From the IMG/VR virus record IMGVR_UViG_2896601577_000004: a DNA stretch of 11,947 nt; one strand, written 5' to 3'. Every line of letters starts with the position of its first letter. The stretch's first letter is position 1. Made by a program: the position numbers and the translations under genes. Origin of the DNA: a virus. Its lineage: Duplodnaviria; Heunggongvirae; Uroviricota; Caudoviricetes. The notes below the pieces were generated by a model that was not told the DNA's origin, ran no database searches, and was given only the letters and a program-made list of their open reading frames with translations. Positions 1 to 11,102 of the stretch are shown here, piece after piece.

Positions 1-906
1 GTGGATAGCGCACGCGCCCTTATTGCCCGGGGATGGGGAGTAAGCTTAGTCAGCCGTTGTCTCCGGGTGTCGCGTGCGCAGTTGCACGTCATTCTCAGAC
101 GAACCGATGACTGGATGGATGGCCGCCGCAGTCGTCACACTGATGATACGGATGTGCTTCTCCGTATACACCATGTTATCGGAGAGCTGCCCACGTATGG
201 TTATCGTCGGGTATGGGCGCTGCTTCGCAGACAGGCAGAACTTGATGGTATGCCTGCGATCAATGCCAAACGTGTTTACCGGATCATGCGCCAGAATGCG
301 CTGTTGCTTGAGCGAAAACCTGCTGTACCGCCATCGAAACGGGCACATACAGGCAGAGTGGCCGTGAAAGAAAGCAATCAGCGATGGTGCTCTGACGGGT
401 TCGAGTTCTGCTGTGATAACGGAGAGAGACTGCGTGTCACGTTCGCGCTGGACTGCTGTGATCGTGAGGCACTGCACTGGGCGGTGACTACCGGCGGCTT
501 CAACAGTGAAACAGTACAGGACGTCATGCTGGGAGCGGTGGAACGCCGCTTCGGCAACGATCTTCCGTCGTCTCCAGTGGAGTGGCTGACGGATAATGGT
601 TCATGCTACCGGGCTAATGAAACACGCCAGTTCGCCCGGATGTTGGGACTTGAACCGAAGAACACGGCGGTGCGGAGTCCGGAGAGTAACGGAATAGCAG
701 AGAGCTTCGTGAAAACGATAAAGCGTGACTACATCAGTATCATGCCCAAACCAGACGGGTTAACGGCAGCAAAGAACCTTGCAGAGGCGTTCGAGCATTA
801 TAACGAATGGCATCCGCATAGTGCGCTGGGTTATCGCTCGCCACGGGAATATCTGCGGCAGCGGGCTTGTAATGGGTTAAGTGATAACAGATGTCTGGAA
901 ATATAG
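1..906 (+). CDS. insD: IS2 transposase OrfB (InsD), DDE integrase-like catalytic subunit; GTG start at window edge, may be the downstream part of an InsCD fusion frame
   Basis: 301-aa ORF with IS3-family DDE transposase features; sequence recalled as IS2 InsD. Confidence 0.88.
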
Positions 907-933: not shown

Positions 934-3526
<2,593 letters not shown>

Positions 3527-3598
3527 TGGAGCACCTGTGTTGTTCTGAGGTGAGCATATCACCTCTGTTCAGGTGGCCAAATTCAGTGTGCCACTTCA

Positions 3599-3659
<61 letters not shown>

Positions 3660-3662
3660 ATA

Positions 3663-3738
<76 letters not shown>

Positions 3739-3740
3739 GC

Positions 3741-3817
3741 TGGCCCACCACCGAGGACTCGAACCTCGCACCGTCAACTTAGAAGGTTGATGCTCTATCC
3801 GGATGAGCTAGTGGTGG
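3741..3817 (-). tRNA. tRNA-Arg (anticodon UCU, reads AGA), 77 nt, CCA encoded; unusual C1:G72 acceptor pair
   Basis: Minus-strand CCACCACTAGCTCATCCGGATAGAGCATCAACCTTCTAAGTTGACGGTGCGAGGTTCGAGTCCTCGGTGGTGGGCCA folds into a full cloverleaf (D stem GCTC/GAGC, anticodon stem TCAAC/GTTGA, T stem CGAGG/CCTCG). Confidence 0.7.
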
Positions 3818-3818
3818 T

Positions 3819-3895
3819 TGGTGGCCCTTGCTGGACTTGAACCAGCGACCTGGCGATTATGAGTCGCTCGCTCTGACCAACTGAGCTAAAGGGCC
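3819..3895 (-). tRNA. tRNA with CAU anticodon, most similar to tRNA-Ile2 (lysidine type, reads AUA) but tRNA-Met cannot be excluded; 77 nt, CCA encoded
   Basis: Minus-strand GGCCCTTTAGCTCAGTTGGTCAGAGCGAGCGACTCATAATCGCCAGGTCGCTGGTTCAAGTCCAGCAAGGGCCACCA resembles recalled E. coli ileX; one A-C mismatch at the top of the anticodon stem. Confidence 0.65.
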
Positions 3896-4693: not shown

Positions 4694-5512
4694 TTAAGCA
4701 GCCATCTGATGATATTTTTCCCTGAAGGCTGCCGGGGAGATATTCCCCAGACGAGAGTGACGACGCTGACGATTGTAGAAAATCTCAATGTATTCCCGTA
4801 TTACTGAGATGGCTTCATCCCGGTTATTAAAACGATAGTGGCTCAGGCTCTCATTTTTCAGCGTTCCCCAGAAGCTTTCCATCGGAGCGTTGTCGTAACA
4901 CTGACCTTTACGCGACATTGATGTTTTCAGACCAGACTGCTCCTGTATGACCCGGTAATCGTATGCGCAGTACTGTGAACCTCGATCAGAGTGGTGGATT
5001 AGCCCGGCAGGTGGGCGCTGGCTCCTGAGCGCCATAAACAGGGCTTTACCTGTCAGCTCTTTTGTCATGCGCTCTCCCATGGCGTAGCCGACAATTTCGC
5101 ACGTATAAACATCTTTGATGCCAGCGAGGTACAACCATCCCTCCTGTGTGGCAACATACGTCAGGTCCGCCACCCAGACCTGATTTGGTGCTGTAGGAGC
5201 GAACGTCTGGTTCAGCAGATTTGGCGCAACTGGCAGATTGTGGTTCGGGTTCGTAGTCGCTCTGAACTTGCGTTTCTGCTTACAGCGTAGCCTTAGCTCC
5301 TTACGAAGACGTGCCAGTCGGTCACGACCAACGATGATGCCATTCTCTGCCAGCTCCGTCTGGAGCCGCCGGGTTCCATATGTTTCGCGAGTGCGGATAT
5401 GTGCCACCTTAATCTCCAGTTTTAGCCGCTCATCACTTTGTTTTCTGTCTGAGGGTTCATGCTGTACCCAGTTGTAATAACCGCTCCTGGATACACCAAA
5501 TACCTGACACAT
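4694..5512 (-). CDS. IS600 transposase OrfB (DDE domain)
   Basis: 272-aa ORF of IS3-family OrfB type, recalled as IS600 OrfB. Confidence 0.9.
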   Translation of the reverse strand: MCQVFGVSRSGYYNWVQHEPSDRKQSDERLKLEIKVAHIRTRETYGTRRLQTELAENGIIVGRDRLARLRKELRLRCKQKRKFRATTNPNHNLPVAPNLLNQTFAPTAPNQVWVADLTYVATQEGWLYLAGIKDVYTCEIVGYAMGERMTKELTGKALFMALRSQRPPAGLIHHSDRGSQYCAYDYRVIQEQSGLKTSMSRKGQCYDNAPMESFWGTLKNESLSHYRFNNRDEAISVIREYIEIFYNRQRRHSRLGNISPAAFREKYHQMAA

Positions 5513-5547
5513 CGCTTCAATGGGAAATTGTTGTCGCCATTGTTCGA

Positions 5548-5850
5548 TTAACGCGTATTTTTCAGCGACTCCTGTGCAAAATACGCTGTTGCTTTTTTTA
5601 ATATATCTCGCTCAAGGCGAGCTTCATTTAACGCCTTACGCAGTTGCAGAATTTCAGATTCCAGTTCAGCCACCGTGCGGGAACCAGGAGTACCGAGCCC
5701 TTTTCTGGCGGCGGTAACCCATTGTCCTAAAGTGCCTTCAGGAAGGGATAATCGGGAAGCGCCTTCACTGATCGAAAGTTGATTTTCAAGAACCGTTCTG
5801 ACAGCTTCGGCTTTGAACTCTTTAGAGTAACGTTGGTTTTTTCTGCTCAT
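5548..5850 (-). CDS. IS600 OrfA (helix-turn-helix regulatory protein, 100 aa)
   Basis: MSRKNQRYSKEFKAEAVRTVLENQLSISEGASRL... recalled as IS600 OrfA; an A-rich slippery run lies at its 3' end. Confidence 0.9.
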   Translation of the reverse strand: MSRKNQRYSKEFKAEAVRTVLENQLSISEGASRLSLPEGTLGQWVTAARKGLGTPGSRTVAELESEILQLRKALNEARLERDILKKATAYFAQESLKNTR

Positions 5851-5914
5851 TATTAGCTCCTTCTGATGCCATTCTATTTCAGGAAGGAGTGTCCGTTAAA
5901 CTCAGGCTACCTAA

Positions 5915-6109
5915 TCCTTTCTCCAGATTTCTTGCGTGCGAAAAACACCTTCTGCATGCATCAGGCGTAATTCTTCTTTGGTGTAATCGCTTGTTTTTAC
6001 CCGCCAGTCGGTAATGCGCCAGCACAGACGTTTCCGGATCGTGATTGCAGTAGCCAGGAATTCTGACGGTGCACATCTGCCCCCGCGCCGCTTTACGTAA
6101 ATCCACCAT
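5915..6109 (-). pseudogene. ybcO-like (DUF1364) lambdoid nin-region gene, degraded: N-terminal 37 aa in one frame, C-terminus in another frame (internal deletion of the Cys/His-rich centre), and IS600 inserted 9 nt before its stop; the last codons and TGA stop lie at 4635..4650 beyond IS600
   Basis: N-terminus MVDLRKAARGQMCTVRIPGYCNHDPETSVLAHYRLAG matches recalled E. coli YbcO (MADLRKAARGRECQVRIPGVCSHNPETSVLAHIRLTG...). The frame-2 C-terminus ...EGVFRTQEIWRKEGYL (spliced across IS600) matches the recalled YbcO C-terminus ...EGMARTQVIWLKEGVIKA. Confidence 0.55.
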
Positions 6110-6759
6110 TACGCAAACTCCAGTAGCTGCGCGGCCACATTTTCGACTTGTTCCGGAGAGGAAAATTTACGGAACAGGATCCAGTTCAACAGTACATTCA
6201 GCACAGATTTATAAACCTGCTGAAACTCGGTTTCGTCCATATTCGCAAACGAGATGGATTTCGCCCTGCGCCCACGGCTACCGTCCGGATAAATATGCTC
6301 GGTGTAAAATCCGGCCTGAATGGTTACCCACTCGCGGAAAGCCTCAAACGACTTTAGCAATGCTGTATCTCGGGTTCTGCGTGTCGCAACTGTATTCAGA
6401 TATTGCTCTGCGGCTTCGCTCAGAGCTGGCGTATGTTCCCGGCCTACTGATTCGCACAGGTACTCAACGAAGCCTGATACCAGTTCTCGTTCGCGAGGCG
6501 TAATCGCCCCACCGATCGGAGTCCAGTAATCGAATCCCAGTTGCAGGAGTTTGAAAAAACGCTTGTGGAATGCGTAGTTACGCACACGCTTAAAGTCTGC
6601 GTGTATCCACTCACCTGTTTTGATTTGATGCAGAAAATCGCAACTCTCCGGCGTCGCCGGGAGAAGTAATCCGGAAGAGGTTTGTTTGATCAGTTGTATA
6701 TGGCCATCGGCTTTCTCCGGTGGCACGGTGTTACACAGCAGGAGTTCAATCCTGCTCAA
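6109..6759 (-). CDS. Conserved lambdoid-prophage nin-region protein of unknown function (possibly DUF1367 family), 216 aa
   Basis: Long ORF whose stop overlaps the ybcO-like start (TAATG) and whose start overlaps the upstream 95-aa ORF by 14 nt; family assignment is from memory only. Confidence 0.6.
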   Translation of the reverse strand: MSRIELLLCNTVPPEKADGHIQLIKQTSSGLLLPATPESCDFLHQIKTGEWIHADFKRVRNYAFHKRFFKLLQLGFDYWTPIGGAITPRERELVSGFVEYLCESVGREHTPALSEAAEQYLNTVATRRTRDTALLKSFEAFREWVTIQAGFYTEHIYPDGSRGRRAKSISFANMDETEFQQVYKSVLNVLLNWILFRKFSSPEQVENVAAQLLEFA

Positions 6760-7033
6760 GATTGTAGATGAGTTTATTCTTCAGCAAAAGCAGAAAACCA
6801 GCCTTAAAACCAATCTCTTTCAAAACCCGTAATGATGTGACAAATTCGTCCTCACGCAAAATAAAACCGTCCGTCAGAAGTCCATTACAAAAATAAAATA
6901 ACACAGCACCGCTCTTCCTTTGTTGAGATTGCAAACATCTAATGCGGCAATGGCTGACAATCGCTCCATTCTCAACGCGCACAGCATAGAGGCCATTTTC
7001 ACTAAAAATTTCACGCAATTCTTCGATTTTCAT
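6746..7033 (-). CDS. Hypothetical small prophage protein (95 aa), first gene of a coupled operon
   Basis: ATG at 7033 preceded by GGAAGGA at suitable spacing; 14-nt overlap with the next gene; a sigma70-like promoter lies just upstream. Confidence 0.5.
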   Translation of the reverse strand: MKIEELREIFSENGLYAVRVENGAIVSHCRIRCLQSQQRKSGAVLFYFCNGLLTDGFILREDEFVTSLRVLKEIGFKAGFLLLLKNKLIYNLEQD

Positions 7034-7114
7034 CTTCAGAATCCTTCCAGATAAATAGCTCTCCCCTGTTCGGGGTCCATCCCTCTTCTCCCTGCGCGCT
7101 ACTTAAGTGAGTCG

Positions 7115-7142
7115 ATTCTATCTGCGAAGGTGCGCGAATCAA
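7115..7142 (-). promoter_or_regulatory. Candidate sigma70 promoter for the 95-aa / 216-aa / ybcO-like / Q-like operon
   Basis: Minus strand reads TTGATT (-35), 16-nt spacer, TAGAAT (-10), about 80 nt upstream of the ATG at 7033. Confidence 0.35.
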
Positions 7143-7161
7143 ATTCACCGGAAATAAACAA

Positions 7162-7205
7162 CAAAAAACCCGCCGAAACTCTGAGAGATCACAGCGATGG
7201 GCGGG
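7162..7205 (-). terminator. Candidate 3' terminator of the hok transcript
   Basis: Minus strand CCCGCCC-(25-nt loop)-GGCGGG followed by TTTTTT; a second perfect 9-bp hairpin (GGGCGGGGA/TCCCCGCCC, 7236..7265) lies just after the hok stop without a U-tract. Confidence 0.4.
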
Positions 7206-7282
7206 TTAAGTGCGGGTGCGTTGAGGATGCCTGACACATCAGAGGTGGGCGGGGATGGGATCAGCTCCCCGCCCGGTCACTC

Positions 7283-7438
7283 TTACTTCCTGGATTCGTA
7301 GTCTACGAAGACAGCGACCTCCGTCTGGCCGGTTCGGATTCGTACCTCACAGAGGTCTTTCCTCGTTACCAGTGCCGTCACTATGACGGTTAAACAGATG
7401 ACGATCAGGGCGATTAACATCGCCTTTTGCTGCTTCAT
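7283..7438 (-). CDS. hok: Hok-family type I toxin (51 aa small membrane peptide, HokD/RelF-like)
   Basis: MKQQKAMLIALIVICLTVIVTALVTRKDLCEVRIRTGQTEVAVF... is near-identical to recalled HokD over the first ~44 residues, with the typical single transmembrane helix. Confidence 0.8.
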   Translation of the reverse strand: MKQQKAMLIALIVICLTVIVTALVTRKDLCEVRIRTGQTEVAVFVDYESRK

Positions 7439-7495
7439 AGCCTGCTTCTCCTTGCCTTTCGGCATGTAAGAGGCTAACCTACATGTGCAAAGCAT
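7283..7495 (-). CDS. mok: Mok (modulator of killing) reading frame, same frame and stop as hok with a 19-codon N-terminal extension
   Basis: ATG at 7495 opens a 70-aa frame co-terminal with hok, the arrangement known for mokC/hokC-type loci. Confidence 0.55.
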   Translation of the reverse strand: MLCTCRLASYMPKGKEKQAMKQQKAMLIALIVICLTVIVTALVTRKDLCEVRIRTGQTEVAVFVDYESRK

Positions 7496-7665
7496 GAAAT
7501 TGGCCTCAGATTAATGTTAAGCGTCTTGCCGGACGCGTAATGTTAACTGGGGCTTTTCTCTATCTGCCTTTTAGTGTTCATGCCTGAAGCAGATAGCCTC
7601 AAGCACCCGCAGTCATTCTACTTACCTCGCCAATATGAAATCAATCAGAAAGGTGCCCCATAAAA

Positions 7666-8352
7666 TCACTCCTTCTCTTCTTTACCGTAGTGGAGTTGAC
7701 CAATTTTGATAAGAGGGCGTCCCTGAGATTTGCGGTGTAGATTGGTATCGCGCAGAGAATACACACAGCCACAATATTCCTGCTGATAGAATTTTTCGCG
7801 CTTGCTGATTTCAATCATACGGGACGAGCCTCCCTGCTTGCGCCAGTTATAATCCCAGTACACCATGCCCGGATAATGCGCGACGGCTCGCCGCCCACAG
7901 TCGTTAACCTGCTGCATATTTTTCCAGCGTGAAATGCCCAGTGAACTGCTGATCACACTGAAACCATTTTCAGCGGCGTACAGCGCTGTCCGCTCAAAAC
8001 GCATGTCAAAACACATGGTGCAACGGATCCCTCGTTCGGGCTCCCATTCCATTCCTTTGGCTCGTTCAAACCAGTTGTCTGTGTCGTAATCAGCATCAAT
8101 AAACGGCACGCCGTGTTGTTCAGCAAAGCGAATATTCTCATCCTTACGAATTAAATACTCTTTCTGAGGATGAATGTTCGGGTTGTAGAAAAAGATGGTG
8201 TAGTCGATTCCCGAGGCCTGAAGCGCCTCCATCACCTCACCGGAACATGGAGCACAGCAAGAGTGCAGTAGTAGTTTGTTTGCCCCGTTTGGGAGCTCCA
8301 ATTTGGGCCGTTTGAAATCAGCAACTGTCATAAATATGTTTATTGGGGTCAT
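7666..8352 (-). CDS. queH: QueH-like epoxyqueuosine reductase (DUF208 family), prophage-borne
   Basis: 228-aa ORF with the recalled DUF208 cysteine motifs: HSCCAPCS near the N-terminus, CTMCFDMRF in the middle, YCGCVYS near the C-terminus. Confidence 0.75.
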
Positions 8353-8499
8353 AAAAATATCAAAGAGTGTAGCATTAGAACGGGGCTATCGGAAACAGAT
8401 GTGTGACTGCTCCCCGCCCTTTCGGGCTGAAGTGGCACACTGAATTTGGCCACCTGAACAGAGGTGATATGCTCACCTCAGAACAACACAGGTGCTCCA

Positions 8500-9397
<898 letters not shown>

Positions 9398-9439
9398 TGA
9401 ACCGCCCCGGGTTTCCTGGAGAGTGTTTTATCTGTGAAC

Positions 9440-10330
9440 TCAGGCTGCCAGATCATCGTTTCCGATGGAAGCATAATAAGCTTTTTCTGCTTCTGCCGGA
9501 GGAGTATGGCCCAGCCTTTCCAGCAATCGTCGATTATTATACCAGTCCACCCACGTGAGTGTGGCCAGTTCCACTTCTGCACGGTTTTTCCAGCTCTTAC
9601 GGTGTATTACCTCCGCTTTGTAAAGACCATTGATGCTCTCCGCCATCGCGTTGTCATACGAGTCGCCTGTACTTCCTGTTGATGCCAGTAATCCGGCTTC
9701 CTTAAGCCGCTGTGTGTAGGCCAGCGATACATACTGAGAACCTTTATCACTGTGATGGACTGTGCCGGACGGTCGACGGGCCCATAACGCCTGCTCCAGA
9801 GCATCCAGCACGAATGTCGTTTCCATGGACGATGAGACCCGCCACCCCACGATGTATCCGGCAAACACATCAATGATGAACGCCACATAGACGAAGCCCT
9901 GCCATGTGCTGACGTAAGTAAAATCAGCCACCCACAGCTGGTCAGGTCGTTCTGCCACGAACTGACGGTTTACGCGGTCGCCTGCGGCAACGGCTTTCCG
10001 GCTGATGGTCGTACGGACCTTTTTACCCCGGAGAACACCGGCAAGTCCCATAACCGCCATGAGACGTGCCACAGTGCATCTGGCCACTCTGATACCTTCC
10101 CGTAACAACTGACGCCAGACTTTACGCACACCGTATACCTGATGATTCCCATCGTATACGCGCAGTATCTCTTTCTTCAGCCAGTCATCGCGCTGCGCAC
10201 GGGCACTGCGTTTATCAGGATGATGTCGCTGTTGCTGACAGTGGTAATACGTTGACGGGGCAATATGCAGTTCACTGCATACCGGTCCGACCCCGTACAG
10301 CTTACGCAGCTTATCCAGCAGTGGCATCAC
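9440..10330 (-). CDS. IS629 transposase OrfB (DDE domain, 296 aa)
   Basis: IS3-family OrfB with a 4-nt overlap with OrfA; recalled as IS629 OrfB. Confidence 0.9.
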
Positions 10331-10653
10331 TTTTTCCAGAGGCGGTCGAACTCCGCCTTCGCAAAATAAGCGGAAGCCTGGCGAAGGATATCGTTACTGC
10401 GGCGCAGTTCACGATTTTCACGCTCCAGCTCTTTCAGACGCTGACGTTCAGCGGTGGTGAGCCCTCCATCACCGCCCCCGGTATCCCGCTCATGCTGGCG
10501 AACCCAGACACGCAGAGTCTCCGGCGTACAGCCAATCTTTGGAGCAATGGAACAAATTGTCGCCCATTGTGAGTCATATTCGCCCTGACTTTCCAGAACC
10601 ATACGGACTGCCCGTTGACGGACTTCGGGGGAAAAACGAGTATTTTTAGTCAT
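10327..10653 (-). CDS. IS629 OrfA (108 aa, helix-turn-helix)
   Basis: [50 protein letters not shown]... recalled as IS629 OrfA. Confidence 0.9.
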
Positions 10654-10707
10654 CCTGTTTACCTCTTTCTCAGGGAGTTTAGTCTCCAGGATTCCCGGGG
10701 CGGTTCA

Positions 10708-11102
10708 ATGGGAAATTGTTGTCGCCATTGTTCGATTAACGCGTATTTTTCAGCGACTCCTGTGCAAAATACGCTGTTGCTTTTTTTAATATATCTCGCT
10801 CAAGGCGAGCTTCATTTAACGCCTTACGCAGTTGCAGAATTTCAGATTCCAGTTCAGCCACCGTGCGGGAACCAGGAGTACCGAGCCCTTTTCTGGCGGC
10901 GGTAACCCATTGTCCTAAAGTGCCTTCAGGAAGGGATAATCGGGAAGCGCCTTCACTGATCGAAAGTTGATTTTCAAGAACCGTTCTGACAGCTTCGGCT
11001 TTGAACTCTTTAGAGTAACGTTGGTTTTTTCTGCTCATTATTAGCTCCTTCTGATGCCATTCTATTTCAGGAAGGAGTGTCCGTTAAACTCAGGCTACCT
11101 CA
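10708..11102 (-). mobile_element. IS600, second copy, truncated: only the left ~395 bp (orfA end) remain, abutting IS629
   Basis: Sequence identical to 5518..5912 of copy 1; terminus ...CTCAGGCTACCTCA at 11102; the IS629/IS600 junction falls within the 4-bp microhomology TTCA (10704..10707). Confidence 0.9.
10736..11038 (-). CDS. IS600 OrfA (copy 2)
   Basis: Identical protein to copy 1 OrfA. Confidence 0.9.
   Translation of the reverse strand: MSRKNQRYSKEFKAEAVRTVLENQLSISEGASRLSLPEGTLGQWVTAARKGLGTPGSRTVAELESEILQLRKALNEARLERDILKKATAYFAQESLKNTR

What the first reader, a model, noticed from the sequence alone, without database searches (positions are those of the whole stretch)
7150..7660. hok/mok type I toxin-antitoxin locus with predicted Sok antisense region and structured 3' UTR
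Hok (51 aa) lies inside a co-terminal 70-aa Mok frame, as in known hok/sok loci. On the opposite (plus) strand a candidate Sok promoter TTGCCT-N17-TAACCT (7452..7480) would drive an antisense RNA across the mok start (ATG 7493..7495). Downstream of the hok stop there is a perfect 9-bp hairpin (7236..7265) and a second hairpin with a U-tract (7162..7205), consistent with the fold-back elements of hok mRNAs. The locus appears intact, unlike the pseudogenes around it, which suggests retention by post-segregational selection.
Basis: partly seen in the sequence, partly recalled or inferred. Interest (0 to 1): 0.4.

Follow-up and report, generated by a model that had tools for sequence, protein, structure and literature searches.

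The report
Complete prophage hok/mok/sok toxin-antitoxin cassette

Summary
A 51-aa Hok ORF (7283..7438, minus) lies inside an in-frame, co-terminal 70-aa Mok ORF (to 7495). Pfam HOK_GEF scores E=4e-23. Rfam RF01794 scores 116 bits on the hok-sense strand (7433..7608).

The proposed Sok promoter TTGCCT-N17-TAACCT (7452..7480, plus) is at the stated coordinates. It is conserved in homologues and has the same two hexamers as the sokW promoter of Stx2 prophage Sp5, where sokW is a proven antitoxin. By homology, Sok is 7487..7557 (plus).

Its terminator hairpin is about 8 kcal/mol more stable on the plus strand in all 17 sequence variants, and it shows compensatory changes.

It is the stretch 7214..7226 between them, which pairs with the mRNA 5' end (tac, 7597..7608). 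The 9-bp hairpin is at 7247..7274, not 7236..7265.

RefSeq annotates a 99.6%-identical locus as hokD. K-12 hokD keeps only 7201..7452 of it.

The locus lies between intact queH and nin-region genes. The claim that it is retained by post-segregational selection is unsupported.

Verdict: already known, low interest.

The parts
7615..7644 (-). Putative hok/mok mRNA promoter, TTGATT-N18-TAGAAT. It places the transcription start at about 7608.
   Evidence: Sigma-70 scan, 9 of 12 positions. The Rfam model and the homology among relatives both begin at 7608.
7161..7608 (-). Full-length hok mRNA, about 448 nt (inferred ends).
   Evidence: Fold of -187.5 kcal/mol, z=-8.3. Across 66 homologues 89% of cells are paired and 40 pairs show double-sided changes.
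7597..7608 (-). tac (translational activator) element, GGGUGCUUGAGG, at the mRNA 5' end.
   Evidence: It pairs with the fbi in the minimum-energy fold. It is nearly invariant in 66 homologues. It has alternative partners at 7580..7590 (5' hairpin when the fbi is absent) and at the ucb (Rfam consensus structure).
7549..7555 (-). ucb / anti-SD element, AAGCCCC. It pairs with the mok SD in the closed form or with tac in the open form.
   Evidence: Helix 5 of the full-length fold pairs GCCCCAG with CUGAGGC. The Rfam consensus pairs model positions 1-8 with this stretch.
7504..7507 (-). mok Shine-Dalgarno sequence, GAGG, sequestered in the full-length fold.
   Evidence: Read from the sequence. Paired. 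It is the same GAGG motif as the R1 mok SD (PMC9841398).
7283..7495 (-). mok leader ORF, 70 codons, in frame and co-terminal with hok.
   Evidence: The ATG column is conserved in 64 of 66 homologues while the frame varies.
7448..7452 (-). hok Shine-Dalgarno sequence, AGGAG. It adjoins the Sok -35 box on the opposite strand, sharing base 7452.
   Evidence: Read from the sequence. Invariant block G153-G161 in alignment A1.
7283..7438 (-). hok toxin ORF, 51 aa: MKQQKAMLIALIVICLTVIVTALVTRKDLCEVRIRTGQTEVAVFVDYESRK.
   Evidence: Pfam PF01848, 81.1 bits, profile 1-42 of 42. It differs from HokW at 1 of 51 residues. The 99.6%-identical locus in RefSeq is annotated hokD.
7297..7300 (-). UACG motif at Tyr47, a candidate TadA A-to-I (Tyr to Cys) recoding site. 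The editable A is at 7299.
   Evidence: UACGA is invariant in 66 homologues. The A lies in a 7-nt CUACGAA loop in a +/-25-nt fold. Editing at this position is reported for K-12 hokC/D/E (PMC5630033).
7247..7274 (-). Perfect 9-bp hairpin just after the hok stop codon; probable 3'-terminal protective stem-loop of the processed mRNA.
   Evidence: (I5). Homologues keep a hairpin at this position with different stem sequences. Role inferred from R1 (PMC9841398).
7214..7226 (-). fbi (fold-back inhibitory) element, CCUCAACGCACCC.
   Evidence: 12 bp with tac and one bulged C. 96.8% of cells are paired across 66 homologues, with one compensatory G-C to A-U change. Homology among relatives stops just after it.
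7161..7207 (-). Intrinsic terminator of hok mRNA: 8-bp GC-rich stem, 25-nt structured loop, U6 tract.
   Evidence: I6. The loop carries a 23-nt insertion relative to the usual CCCGCUUCGGCGGG form.
7452..7480 (+). Sok promoter, TTGCCT-N17-TAACCT.
   Evidence: Coordinates read. A -35 of TTGCCT or TTGACC with a 17-18 nt spacer is present in 65 of 66 homologues, and a TAnnnT -10 in 58. The hexamers are identical to those of the sokW promoter. The primers of the sokW 'pro-less' mutant replace exactly this -10, and that mutant released HokW toxicity.
7487..7557 (+). Sok antisense RNA, about 71 nt. It has a 5' single-stranded tail (7487..7502) across the mok start codon, a terminator hairpin (7503..7553, whose first bases cover the mok SD) and a UUUU tail (7554..7557).
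   Evidence: Positional equivalent of the annotated sokW RNA of VT2-Sakai. Fold of -30.2 kcal/mol, z=-4.7. The hairpin is more stable on the plus strand in 17 of 17 variants. 6 of 18 pairs are compensatory and the G-U pairs are conserved.

Best explanation
The locus is a complete hokD/hokW-type hok-mok-sok type I toxin-antitoxin cassette. It sits in the early-right (nin) region of an IS-riddled lambdoid prophage of a Shigella/E. coli chromosome, and it most likely works like hok/sok of plasmid R1.

Shown by sequence, folding and comparison:
- A roughly 448-nt mRNA starts near 7608. It encodes the Mok leader and the 51-aa membrane toxin Hok.
- Its 5' end (tac) can pair with the 3' fbi element, while the ucb element sequesters the mok SD. 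That would give a closed, untranslatable full-length RNA.
- Without the fbi, the 5' end refolds locally.
- A constitutive-type promoter on the opposite strand would produce a roughly 71-nt Sok RNA. Its 5' tail covers the mok start codon and its terminator hairpin begins over the mok SD.

Inferred from the R1 and Sp5 homologues:
- Slow 3' trimming removes the fbi, and the tac/ucb pairing then opens the mok SD.
- Sok binds the opened RNA and RNase III destroys the duplex.
- If Sok synthesis stops, the stable mRNA is translated. Translation of mok is coupled to translation of hok, and Hok depolarises the inner membrane.

The biological pay-off in this defective prophage is not determined. The candidates are resistance to deletion, help with lysis, or phage exclusion.
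For: Family models:
- Pfam HOK_GEF, E=4.3e-23, full-length match.
- Rfam RF01794, 116 bits, full model 1-157, ending at the hok AUG.

Annotation and experiment in relatives:
- RefSeq annotates a 99.6%-identical locus as hokD, between queH and nin genes.
- The DNA is 91% identical to hokW/mokW/sokW of VT2-Sakai/Sp5. There HokW is toxic, sokW is detected by Northern blot, and a mutation of the sokW promoter releases toxicity (PMC8621323).

RNA structure:
- 12-bp tac-fbi pairing in the minimum-energy fold, z=-8.3. It is kept in 96.8% of cells across 66 homologues.
- Alternative 5' hairpin when the fbi is removed.
- The mok SD is paired to the ucb.

Sok:
- Promoter hexamers and spacing are conserved.
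- The hairpin is favoured on the plus strand by about 8 kcal/mol in 17 of 17 variants and shows compensatory changes.

mok:
- The ATG column is conserved while the frame varies, as expected for a coupling leader (PMC9841398).
Against: - There are no expression or phenotype data for this locus.
- The Sok promoter is weak by consensus (7 of 12) and the scan did not call it.
- The NCBIfam Hok subfamily model scores 55 bits, below its curated cut-off of 73.
- The terminator loop carries a 23-nt insertion that is absent from the characterised homologues. Its effect on termination or 3' processing is unknown.
- The tac-fbi helix is almost invariant, so covariation support for it is thin: one compensatory cell.
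- Chromosomal hokA/B/C loci that were tested did not give post-segregational killing or rifampicin activation (as summarised in 10.1101/2025.08.07.668861).
Confidence: 0.9

Rival explanations
1. The cassette is structurally intact but physiologically silent: a passenger relic of the prophage, like the chromosomal hok loci of laboratory E. coli. It gives no killing on loss of Sok and is under no selection for retention.
For: [quoted passage not shown] E. coli genomes that carry a match have a median of 2 places, up to 9, including degenerate copies such as L010 (mutated tac, shifted mok frame). The window variant has a 23-nt insertion in the terminator loop. The surrounding prophage is broken by IS elements.
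Against: Every regulatory element is intact and matches the functional hokW-sokW locus. Hok differs from toxic HokW at one residue. Non-coding elements (tac, fbi, Sok hairpin, Sok promoter) are nearly invariant among 46 close relatives while neighbouring positions vary, which argues for purifying selection in the lineage as a whole.
Confidence: 0.3
2. The cassette is active, but its role is tied to the phage life cycle or to phage defence rather than to post-segregational retention. Either Hok is released on prophage induction and hastens lysis, as in Sp5, or it acts in abortive infection against superinfecting phages.
For: hokW-sokW of Sp5: sokW disappears after mitomycin C, HokW appears in a RecA-dependent manner about 1 h before the endolysin, and deletion halves phage release (PMC8621323). 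hok genes are about four-fold enriched in prophages. R1 hok/sok on a high-copy plasmid protected against T4 (summarised). Here the cassette is co-oriented with queH, the nin genes and the tRNA cluster. Early-right read-through transcription on induction would therefore run against the Sok promoter (inference).
Against: This prophage carries several IS3-family insertions, so a productive lytic cycle seems unlikely (whether it can still be induced was not tested). In Sp5 the cassette sits at a different place, near the prophage end. According to its section heading, the preprint reports that hok is not enriched near defence systems (outline; the section itself was not read).
Confidence: 0.35
3. 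The ORFs and motifs are chance features, or a decayed pseudogene, with no toxin-antitoxin function.
For: The Sok promoter motif alone is not above chance. The NCBIfam score is below its cut-off.
Against: Pfam E=4e-23 and Rfam E=2e-26. There is no frameshift or stop. The locus is 99.6% identical to an annotated hokD locus. Structure is conserved across 66 homologues.
Confidence: 0.01

Closest known systems
hokW-mokW-sokW of Stx2 prophage Sp5 / VT2-Sakai (933W L0137/L0138/L0144)
   Same: 91% DNA identity over about 405 nt of the transcript. Hok is identical at 50 of 51 residues. Mok is 70 aa and in frame. The Sok promoter hexamers are identical, and so are 54 of 54 nt of the Sok hairpin and tail. 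It is also carried on a lambdoid prophage. [quoted passage not shown]
   Different: 7 of the first 17 nt of Sok (the recognition tail) differ. The region beyond the fbi and the -35 region of the hok promoter are unrelated, because homology spans only window 7204..7631. Sp5 carries it near the prophage end, whereas here it lies between queH and the nin genes. The window's Hok ends in SRK instead of SEK.
hok/mok/sok (parB) of plasmid R1, the mechanistic paradigm
   Same: The parts list is the same: tac/fbi, ucb/anti-SD over a GAGG mok SD, a metastable 5' hairpin, a 70-codon mok, a Sok promoter inside the leader, a Sok with a 5' tail plus terminator hairpin, and a 3' stem-loop (PMC9841398).
   Different: Hok proteins are only about 44% identical (HokW versus R1 Hok). 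R1 mok is, from my memory of the R1 sequence, in the +1 frame relative to hok; here it is in frame. The window's Sok hairpin carries about 16 extra nt relative to the Rfam consensus. R1 is a plasmid stabilised by post-segregational killing; this locus is chromosomal and prophage-borne.
hokD (relF) of the E. coli K-12 Qin cryptic prophage
   Same: It has the same RefSeq gene name. DNA is 90% identical over window 7201..7452 (hok SD, ORF, 3' hairpin and fbi). It also lies in the nin region of a lambdoid prophage, upstream of a Q-type antiterminator.
   Different: K-12 homology stops at 7452. K-12 therefore lacks the mok start, the Sok -10 and the Sok gene, the ucb, the tac and the hok promoter, and sits directly downstream of relBE. 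The window carries the complete cassette downstream of queH.
hokC (gef)/mokC/sokC chromosomal locus
   Same: About 75% DNA identity over the transcript (L019-L026). The tac and fbi blocks are the same, and mok is in frame at 69 aa in four of the seven copies.
   Different: It has a shorter Sok hairpin of 33 nt, a different -10 (CACTCT) and a different chromosomal context.

Membership tests
hok/sok (Hok/Gef) type I toxin-antitoxin family | Toxin ORF of about 50 aa from the Hok/Gef family (hydrophobic N-terminal helix, conserved Cys and LCE motif) | tested here: met
   Pfam PF01848 at 81.1 bits (cut-off 22), profile 1-42 of 42. No stop or frameshift; 50 of 51 residues identical to HokW. Caveat: NCBIfam NF007279 scores 55 bits, below its cut-off of 73.
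hok/sok (Hok/Gef) type I toxin-antitoxin family | mok leader ORF with its own SD, starting upstream of hok and overlapping it | tested here: met
   70-codon ORF at 7283..7495 with a GAGG SD at 7504..7507. The ATG column is conserved in 64 of 66 homologues whatever the frame.
hok/sok (Hok/Gef) type I toxin-antitoxin family | cis-encoded antisense Sok RNA (about 65-70 nt) with its promoter inside the leader, a 5' tail over the mok translation start, and a terminator hairpin | tested here: met
   Promoter at 7452..7480, conserved. The positional equivalent of the annotated and experimentally detected sokW is 7487..7557. Plus-strand-specific hairpin stability in 17 of 17 variants and covariation. 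Transcription itself was not observed.
hok/sok (Hok/Gef) type I toxin-antitoxin family | Long-range tac-fbi pairing between the mRNA 5' end and the 3' UTR | tested here: met
   12 bp, 7597..7608 with 7214..7226, in the minimum-energy fold. 96.8% of cells paired in 66 homologues, though the helix is mostly invariant.
hok/sok (Hok/Gef) type I toxin-antitoxin family | ucb (anti-SD) pairs with the mok SD in the closed form and alternatively with tac in the open form; metastable 5' hairpin in nascent RNA | tested here: met
   SD-ucb helix in the full-length fold. The tac-ucb pairing of the Rfam consensus structure is satisfied. A 5' hairpin at nt 3-29 forms when the 3' end is absent. These are folding predictions only.
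hok/sok (Hok/Gef) type I toxin-antitoxin family | Match to the curated RNA family model (Rfam RF01794) | tested here: met
   116 bits against a gathering score of 59, E=2e-26, full length. The hit is on the hok-sense strand, because the model represents the mRNA leader.
hok/sok (Hok/Gef) type I toxin-antitoxin family | 3' exonucleolytic processing to an active truncated mRNA; RNase III cleavage of the Sok-hok duplex; unstable Sok versus stable hok mRNA | not testable with these tools
   Known for R1 (PMC9841398). Partly shown for hokW-sokW: RNase III and Hfq dependence, and truncated bands on Northern blots.
hok/sok (Hok/Gef) type I toxin-antitoxin family | Killing phenotype or post-segregational killing | not testable with these tools
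   There are no data for this locus. HokW, which differs at one residue, is toxic.
hokD (relF) as defined in E. coli K-12 | Truncated hok locus without mok/sok/tac, lying directly downstream of relBE in prophage Qin | tested here: not met
   K-12 homology covers only window 7201..7452. K-12 has relE-relB upstream; the window has the full leader and queH upstream. The RefSeq name 'hokD' applies at the protein level only.

The most novel reading that the evidence does not exclude
The 5' recognition tail of Sok and its target around the mok start (7480..7506) is a variability hot spot within an otherwise almost invariant cassette. Co-resident prophage copies in one genome carry different tails. 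This could reflect diversifying selection for mutually orthogonal Sok/hok pairs, so that one prophage's Sok cannot neutralise another's hok. That would be a specificity code among competing lambdoid prophages. The window's own tail variant and its terminator-loop insertion would then be functional allelic differences rather than drift.
Probability: 0.25. Interest if true: 0.35.

Novelty: already known. Interest (0 to 1): 0.1.

Why it matters
It matters little beyond correct annotation. It also shows that the 'hokD' label in RefSeq hides a complete mok/sok/tac/fbi cassette, which is truncated in K-12. For the host genome, probably a Shigella or an IS-rich E. coli, it marks a potentially lethal gene held in check by a small RNA inside a decaying prophage. 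That is relevant to prophage deletion, engineering and SOS-induced killing. The side observations (variable Sok tail, invariant TadA-type UACG site, variable mok frame) fit published models and add no new principle.

Tried and rejected
- The terminator scan found nothing in 7000..7800.
- The promoter scan did not call the Sok promoter, which matches 7 of 12 positions. I relied on conservation and homology instead.
- I considered that the minus-strand Rfam 'sok' hit meant Sok is on the minus strand. I rejected this because the model starts at the tac sequence and ends at the hok AUG, so it is in hok-sense orientation.
I rejected this because the fbi is the stretch between them.
- I considered that the identical hexamers TTGATT/TAGAAT at 7142..7115 indicate a duplicated promoter. 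There is no similarity beyond the hexamers, so I treat it as chance or as the promoter of the downstream ORF.
- A whole-window search to identify the source found no single record covering more than 39%, because of the IS mosaic. The best local matches are E. coli FDAARGOS_943/944 at 99.6% and Shigella flexneri SFBU1023 at 99.1%.
- NCBIfam gave only sub-threshold Hok hits and nothing for the neighbouring small ORFs.
- The minimum-energy fold of the truncated mRNA did not reproduce the textbook tac/ucb open form. It gave the local 5' hairpin instead. I used the Rfam consensus for the tac/ucb pairing.

Full report
**Observation.**
- The minus strand carries a 51-aa ORF (7283..7438) nested in frame inside a co-terminal 70-aa ORF that starts at 7495.
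- The shorter ORF is a full-length Hok/Gef-family protein: Pfam PF01848, 81 bits, E=4e-23.
- The perfect 9-bp hairpin exists, but its arms are 7247-7255 and 7266-7274. That is about 10 nt from the coordinates given.
- The U-tract hairpin is an 8-bp stem (7167-7174 / 7200-7207) with a 25-nt loop. The long loop is why the simple terminator scan missed it.
- A gathering-threshold Rfam scan hits RF01794 'sok' at 116 bits (gathering score 59, E=2e-26) over 7433..7608 on the minus strand.
- The aligned model begins at GGGUGCUUGAGG and ends at the hok AUG. It is therefore a model of the hok mRNA leader in sense orientation, and Sok is the complement of its middle part.

**Anatomy.**
- A sigma-70-like promoter (TTGATT-N18-TAGAAT, 7644..7615, minus) places the mRNA start at about 7608. 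The Rfam model and the homology to relatives also start there.
- The 449-nt RNA from 7608 to 7160 folds to -187.5 kcal/mol, z=-8.3.
This is the tac-fbi fold-back of hok mRNAs.
- In the same fold the mok SD (GAGG, 7504..7507) is paired with GCCCC of the ucb, the upstream complementary box or anti-SD (7549..7555).
- If the 3' part is removed, the 5' end instead forms a local hairpin with nt 19-29.
- The Rfam consensus structure shows the third option, tac paired with the ucb.
- These three alternative partners are the ones described for R1 hok mRNA: the metastable nascent form, the closed full-length form and the open truncated form (PMC9841398).

**Sok.**
- The window aligns base for base with VT2-Sakai (AP000422), where mokW, hokW and a 71-nt 'SokW antisense RNA' are annotated.
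- The equivalent of sokW is window 7487..7557. The promoter hexamers are identical. All 54 nt of the hairpin and tail are identical, and 7 of the first 17 nt differ.
- The predicted RNA has a 5' single-stranded tail over the mok start codon, a long hairpin and a GGGGC-UUUU end. The fold is -30.2 kcal/mol, z=-4.7.
- The hairpin occurs in 17 distinct sequence versions among the homologues. In all 17 it is more stable on the plus strand, with a mean of -20.7 versus -12.6 kcal/mol. Several of its pairs are G-U, which become C-A on the hok strand.
- RNAalifold on 21 Sok-strand sequences finds 6 of 18 pairs with compensatory changes and conserved G-U pairs.
- A -35 box (TTGCCT or TTGACC) with a 17-18 nt spacer is present in 65 of 66 homologues. 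A -10 of the form TAnnnT follows in 58 of them.
- In Sp5, HokW was toxic, sokW was detected by Northern blot, and a sokW promoter mutant released toxicity (PMC8621323). The published mutagenic primers replace exactly the TAACCT box (my reading of primers YO-421 and YO-422).
- On consensus alone the promoter is weak (7 of 12) and the scan did not call it.

**Comparative support.**
- I aligned 66 distinct homologues from genomes and viral contigs, 68-99% identical to the window.
- The window's predicted full-length structure is kept in 89% of cells, against 33-42% when the partners are slid. 40 pairs show double-sided changes, and none of 500 shuffles reached this.
- The tac-fbi helix is 96.8% paired but nearly invariant, with a single compensatory case (L047, G-C to A-U). 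Its support is therefore conservation of a non-coding block rather than covariation.
- Homology between relatives stops just after the fbi, and the terminators beyond it are interchangeable.
- The window's terminator carries a 23-nt insertion in the loop compared with the common CCCGCUUCGGCGGG form. The closest relatives in the alignment (L006, L053) share this insertion.
- The mok ATG column is conserved in 64 of 66 sequences, but the frame relative to hok varies:
  - frame 0 in 46 sequences, giving a co-terminal product of 68-70 aa;
  - frame +1 in 14, of which 13 carry an ATG and give 55-68 aa;
  - frame +2 in 6, giving 19 aa that end just past the hok start.
- This is what is expected if translation of mok matters rather than its product, as shown for R1.

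**Context.**
- The cassette lies between an intact queH (7666..8352; Pfam QueH, E=2e-65) and a 95-aa ORF. DUF1367, DUF1364, DUF1133 (Q-like) genes and a tRNA cluster follow, all on the minus strand.
- This is the nin/early-right region of a lambdoid prophage, as in E. coli FDAARGOS_943 and IHE3034, where RefSeq calls the gene hokD.
- The window is a mosaic with several IS3-family copies. The nearest matches are Shigella flexneri and atypical 'E. coli' records.
- 4713 of 5426 complete E. coli genomes carry a match, with a median of two places each. hok genes are known to be enriched in prophages.
- K-12 hokD shares only 7201..7452 and sits behind relBE. The window therefore carries the complete form of a locus that is truncated in K-12.

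**Mechanism and role.**
- The most likely mechanism is the R1 one, as set out under the best explanation. The sequence-level prerequisites are shown here. The processing, RNase III and killing steps are inferred from R1 and Sp5.
The immediate neighbours are also intact.
- Tested chromosomal hok loci did not show post-segregational killing. The closest studied homologue instead accelerates lysis on prophage induction.
- Whether the cassette is active in this IS-disrupted prophage is open.

**Verdict.** The finding is real and correctly interpreted, but it is an already-annotated member of one of the best-studied toxin-antitoxin families. Novelty: already known. Interest: about 0.1.

Noticed in passing
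window 7297..7300 (-), Hok codon 47: The Tyr47 codon UAC lies in a UACG motif within CUACGAA. UACGA is invariant in all 66 homologues, and the A lies in a 7-nt loop in a +/-25-nt fold. This matches the TadA A-to-I (Tyr to Cys) editing site reported for K-12 hokC/D/E (PMC5630033). In the window the closing stem is weaker than in the hokW-type relatives.
   Followed up: partly
window 7480..7506 (Sok 5' tail / mok SD spacer and first mok codons): This is a variability hot spot among 46 close homologues (column entropy 0.5-0.7). It is flanked by near-invariant Sok hairpin and promoter blocks (entropy 0.1 or less). Co-resident copies in one genome (L006/L009/L010 and L007/L012/L014) carry different tails, which may make the Sok/hok pairs orthogonal.
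   Followed up: partly
alignment A1 (66 homologues), mok ATG column = window 7493..7495: The mok start position is conserved but its frame relative to hok differs between homologues: 0, +1 or +2, giving products of 70, 68 or 19 aa. This fits mok acting only through translational coupling.
   Followed up: yes
window 7175..7199 (-), loop of the hok terminator: There is a 23-nt insertion (CAUCGCUGUGAUCUCUCAGAGUU) in the terminator loop relative to the common CCCGCUUCGGCGGG form. The closest relatives in the alignment (L006, L053) share it. Homology among homologues otherwise stops just after the fbi.
   Followed up: partly
window 7433..7608 (-): Rfam RF01794, named 'sok antitoxin', is built in the hok-mRNA sense orientation, running from tac to the hok AUG. 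Its hits therefore mark the toxin mRNA leader strand, not the Sok strand.
   Followed up: yes
window 7115..7142 (-): A second promoter-like site has the same hexamers as the hok promoter (TTGATT-N16-TAGAAT). It lies directly after the hok terminator and upstream of the 95-aa ORF (6746..7033). There is no similarity beyond the hexamers.
   Followed up: no
window 3596..3895 (-): A phage-type tRNA cluster: Thr(UGU), Arg(UCU) and a CAU-anticodon tRNA that RefSeq annotates as Ile in the related locus L001. A fourth tRNA matches only model positions 10-63 at 31.5 bits and is apparently truncated next to an IS3-family element.
   Followed up: no
window 1..906, 2331..3562, 4694..5850, 8464..11038: Several IS3-family transposase copies, including a programmed-frameshift ALIL pseudoknot at 10256..10372. 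One copy appears to truncate the DUF1364 ORF (5879..6109, 76 aa, against 96 aa in L001). A family 1 glycosyl hydrolase ORF (934..2319) sits between IS copies.
   Followed up: partly
L133 (E. coli K-12 Qin, 1645119..1645274) versus window 7201..7452: K-12 hokD homology ends exactly at the hok SD / Sok -35 boundary. The relBE-hokD arrangement therefore replaced the whole leader (mok start, Sok, ucb, tac, promoter). Similar truncated copies are among the fetched loci (L011, L013, L045, L114, L129).
   Followed up: partly
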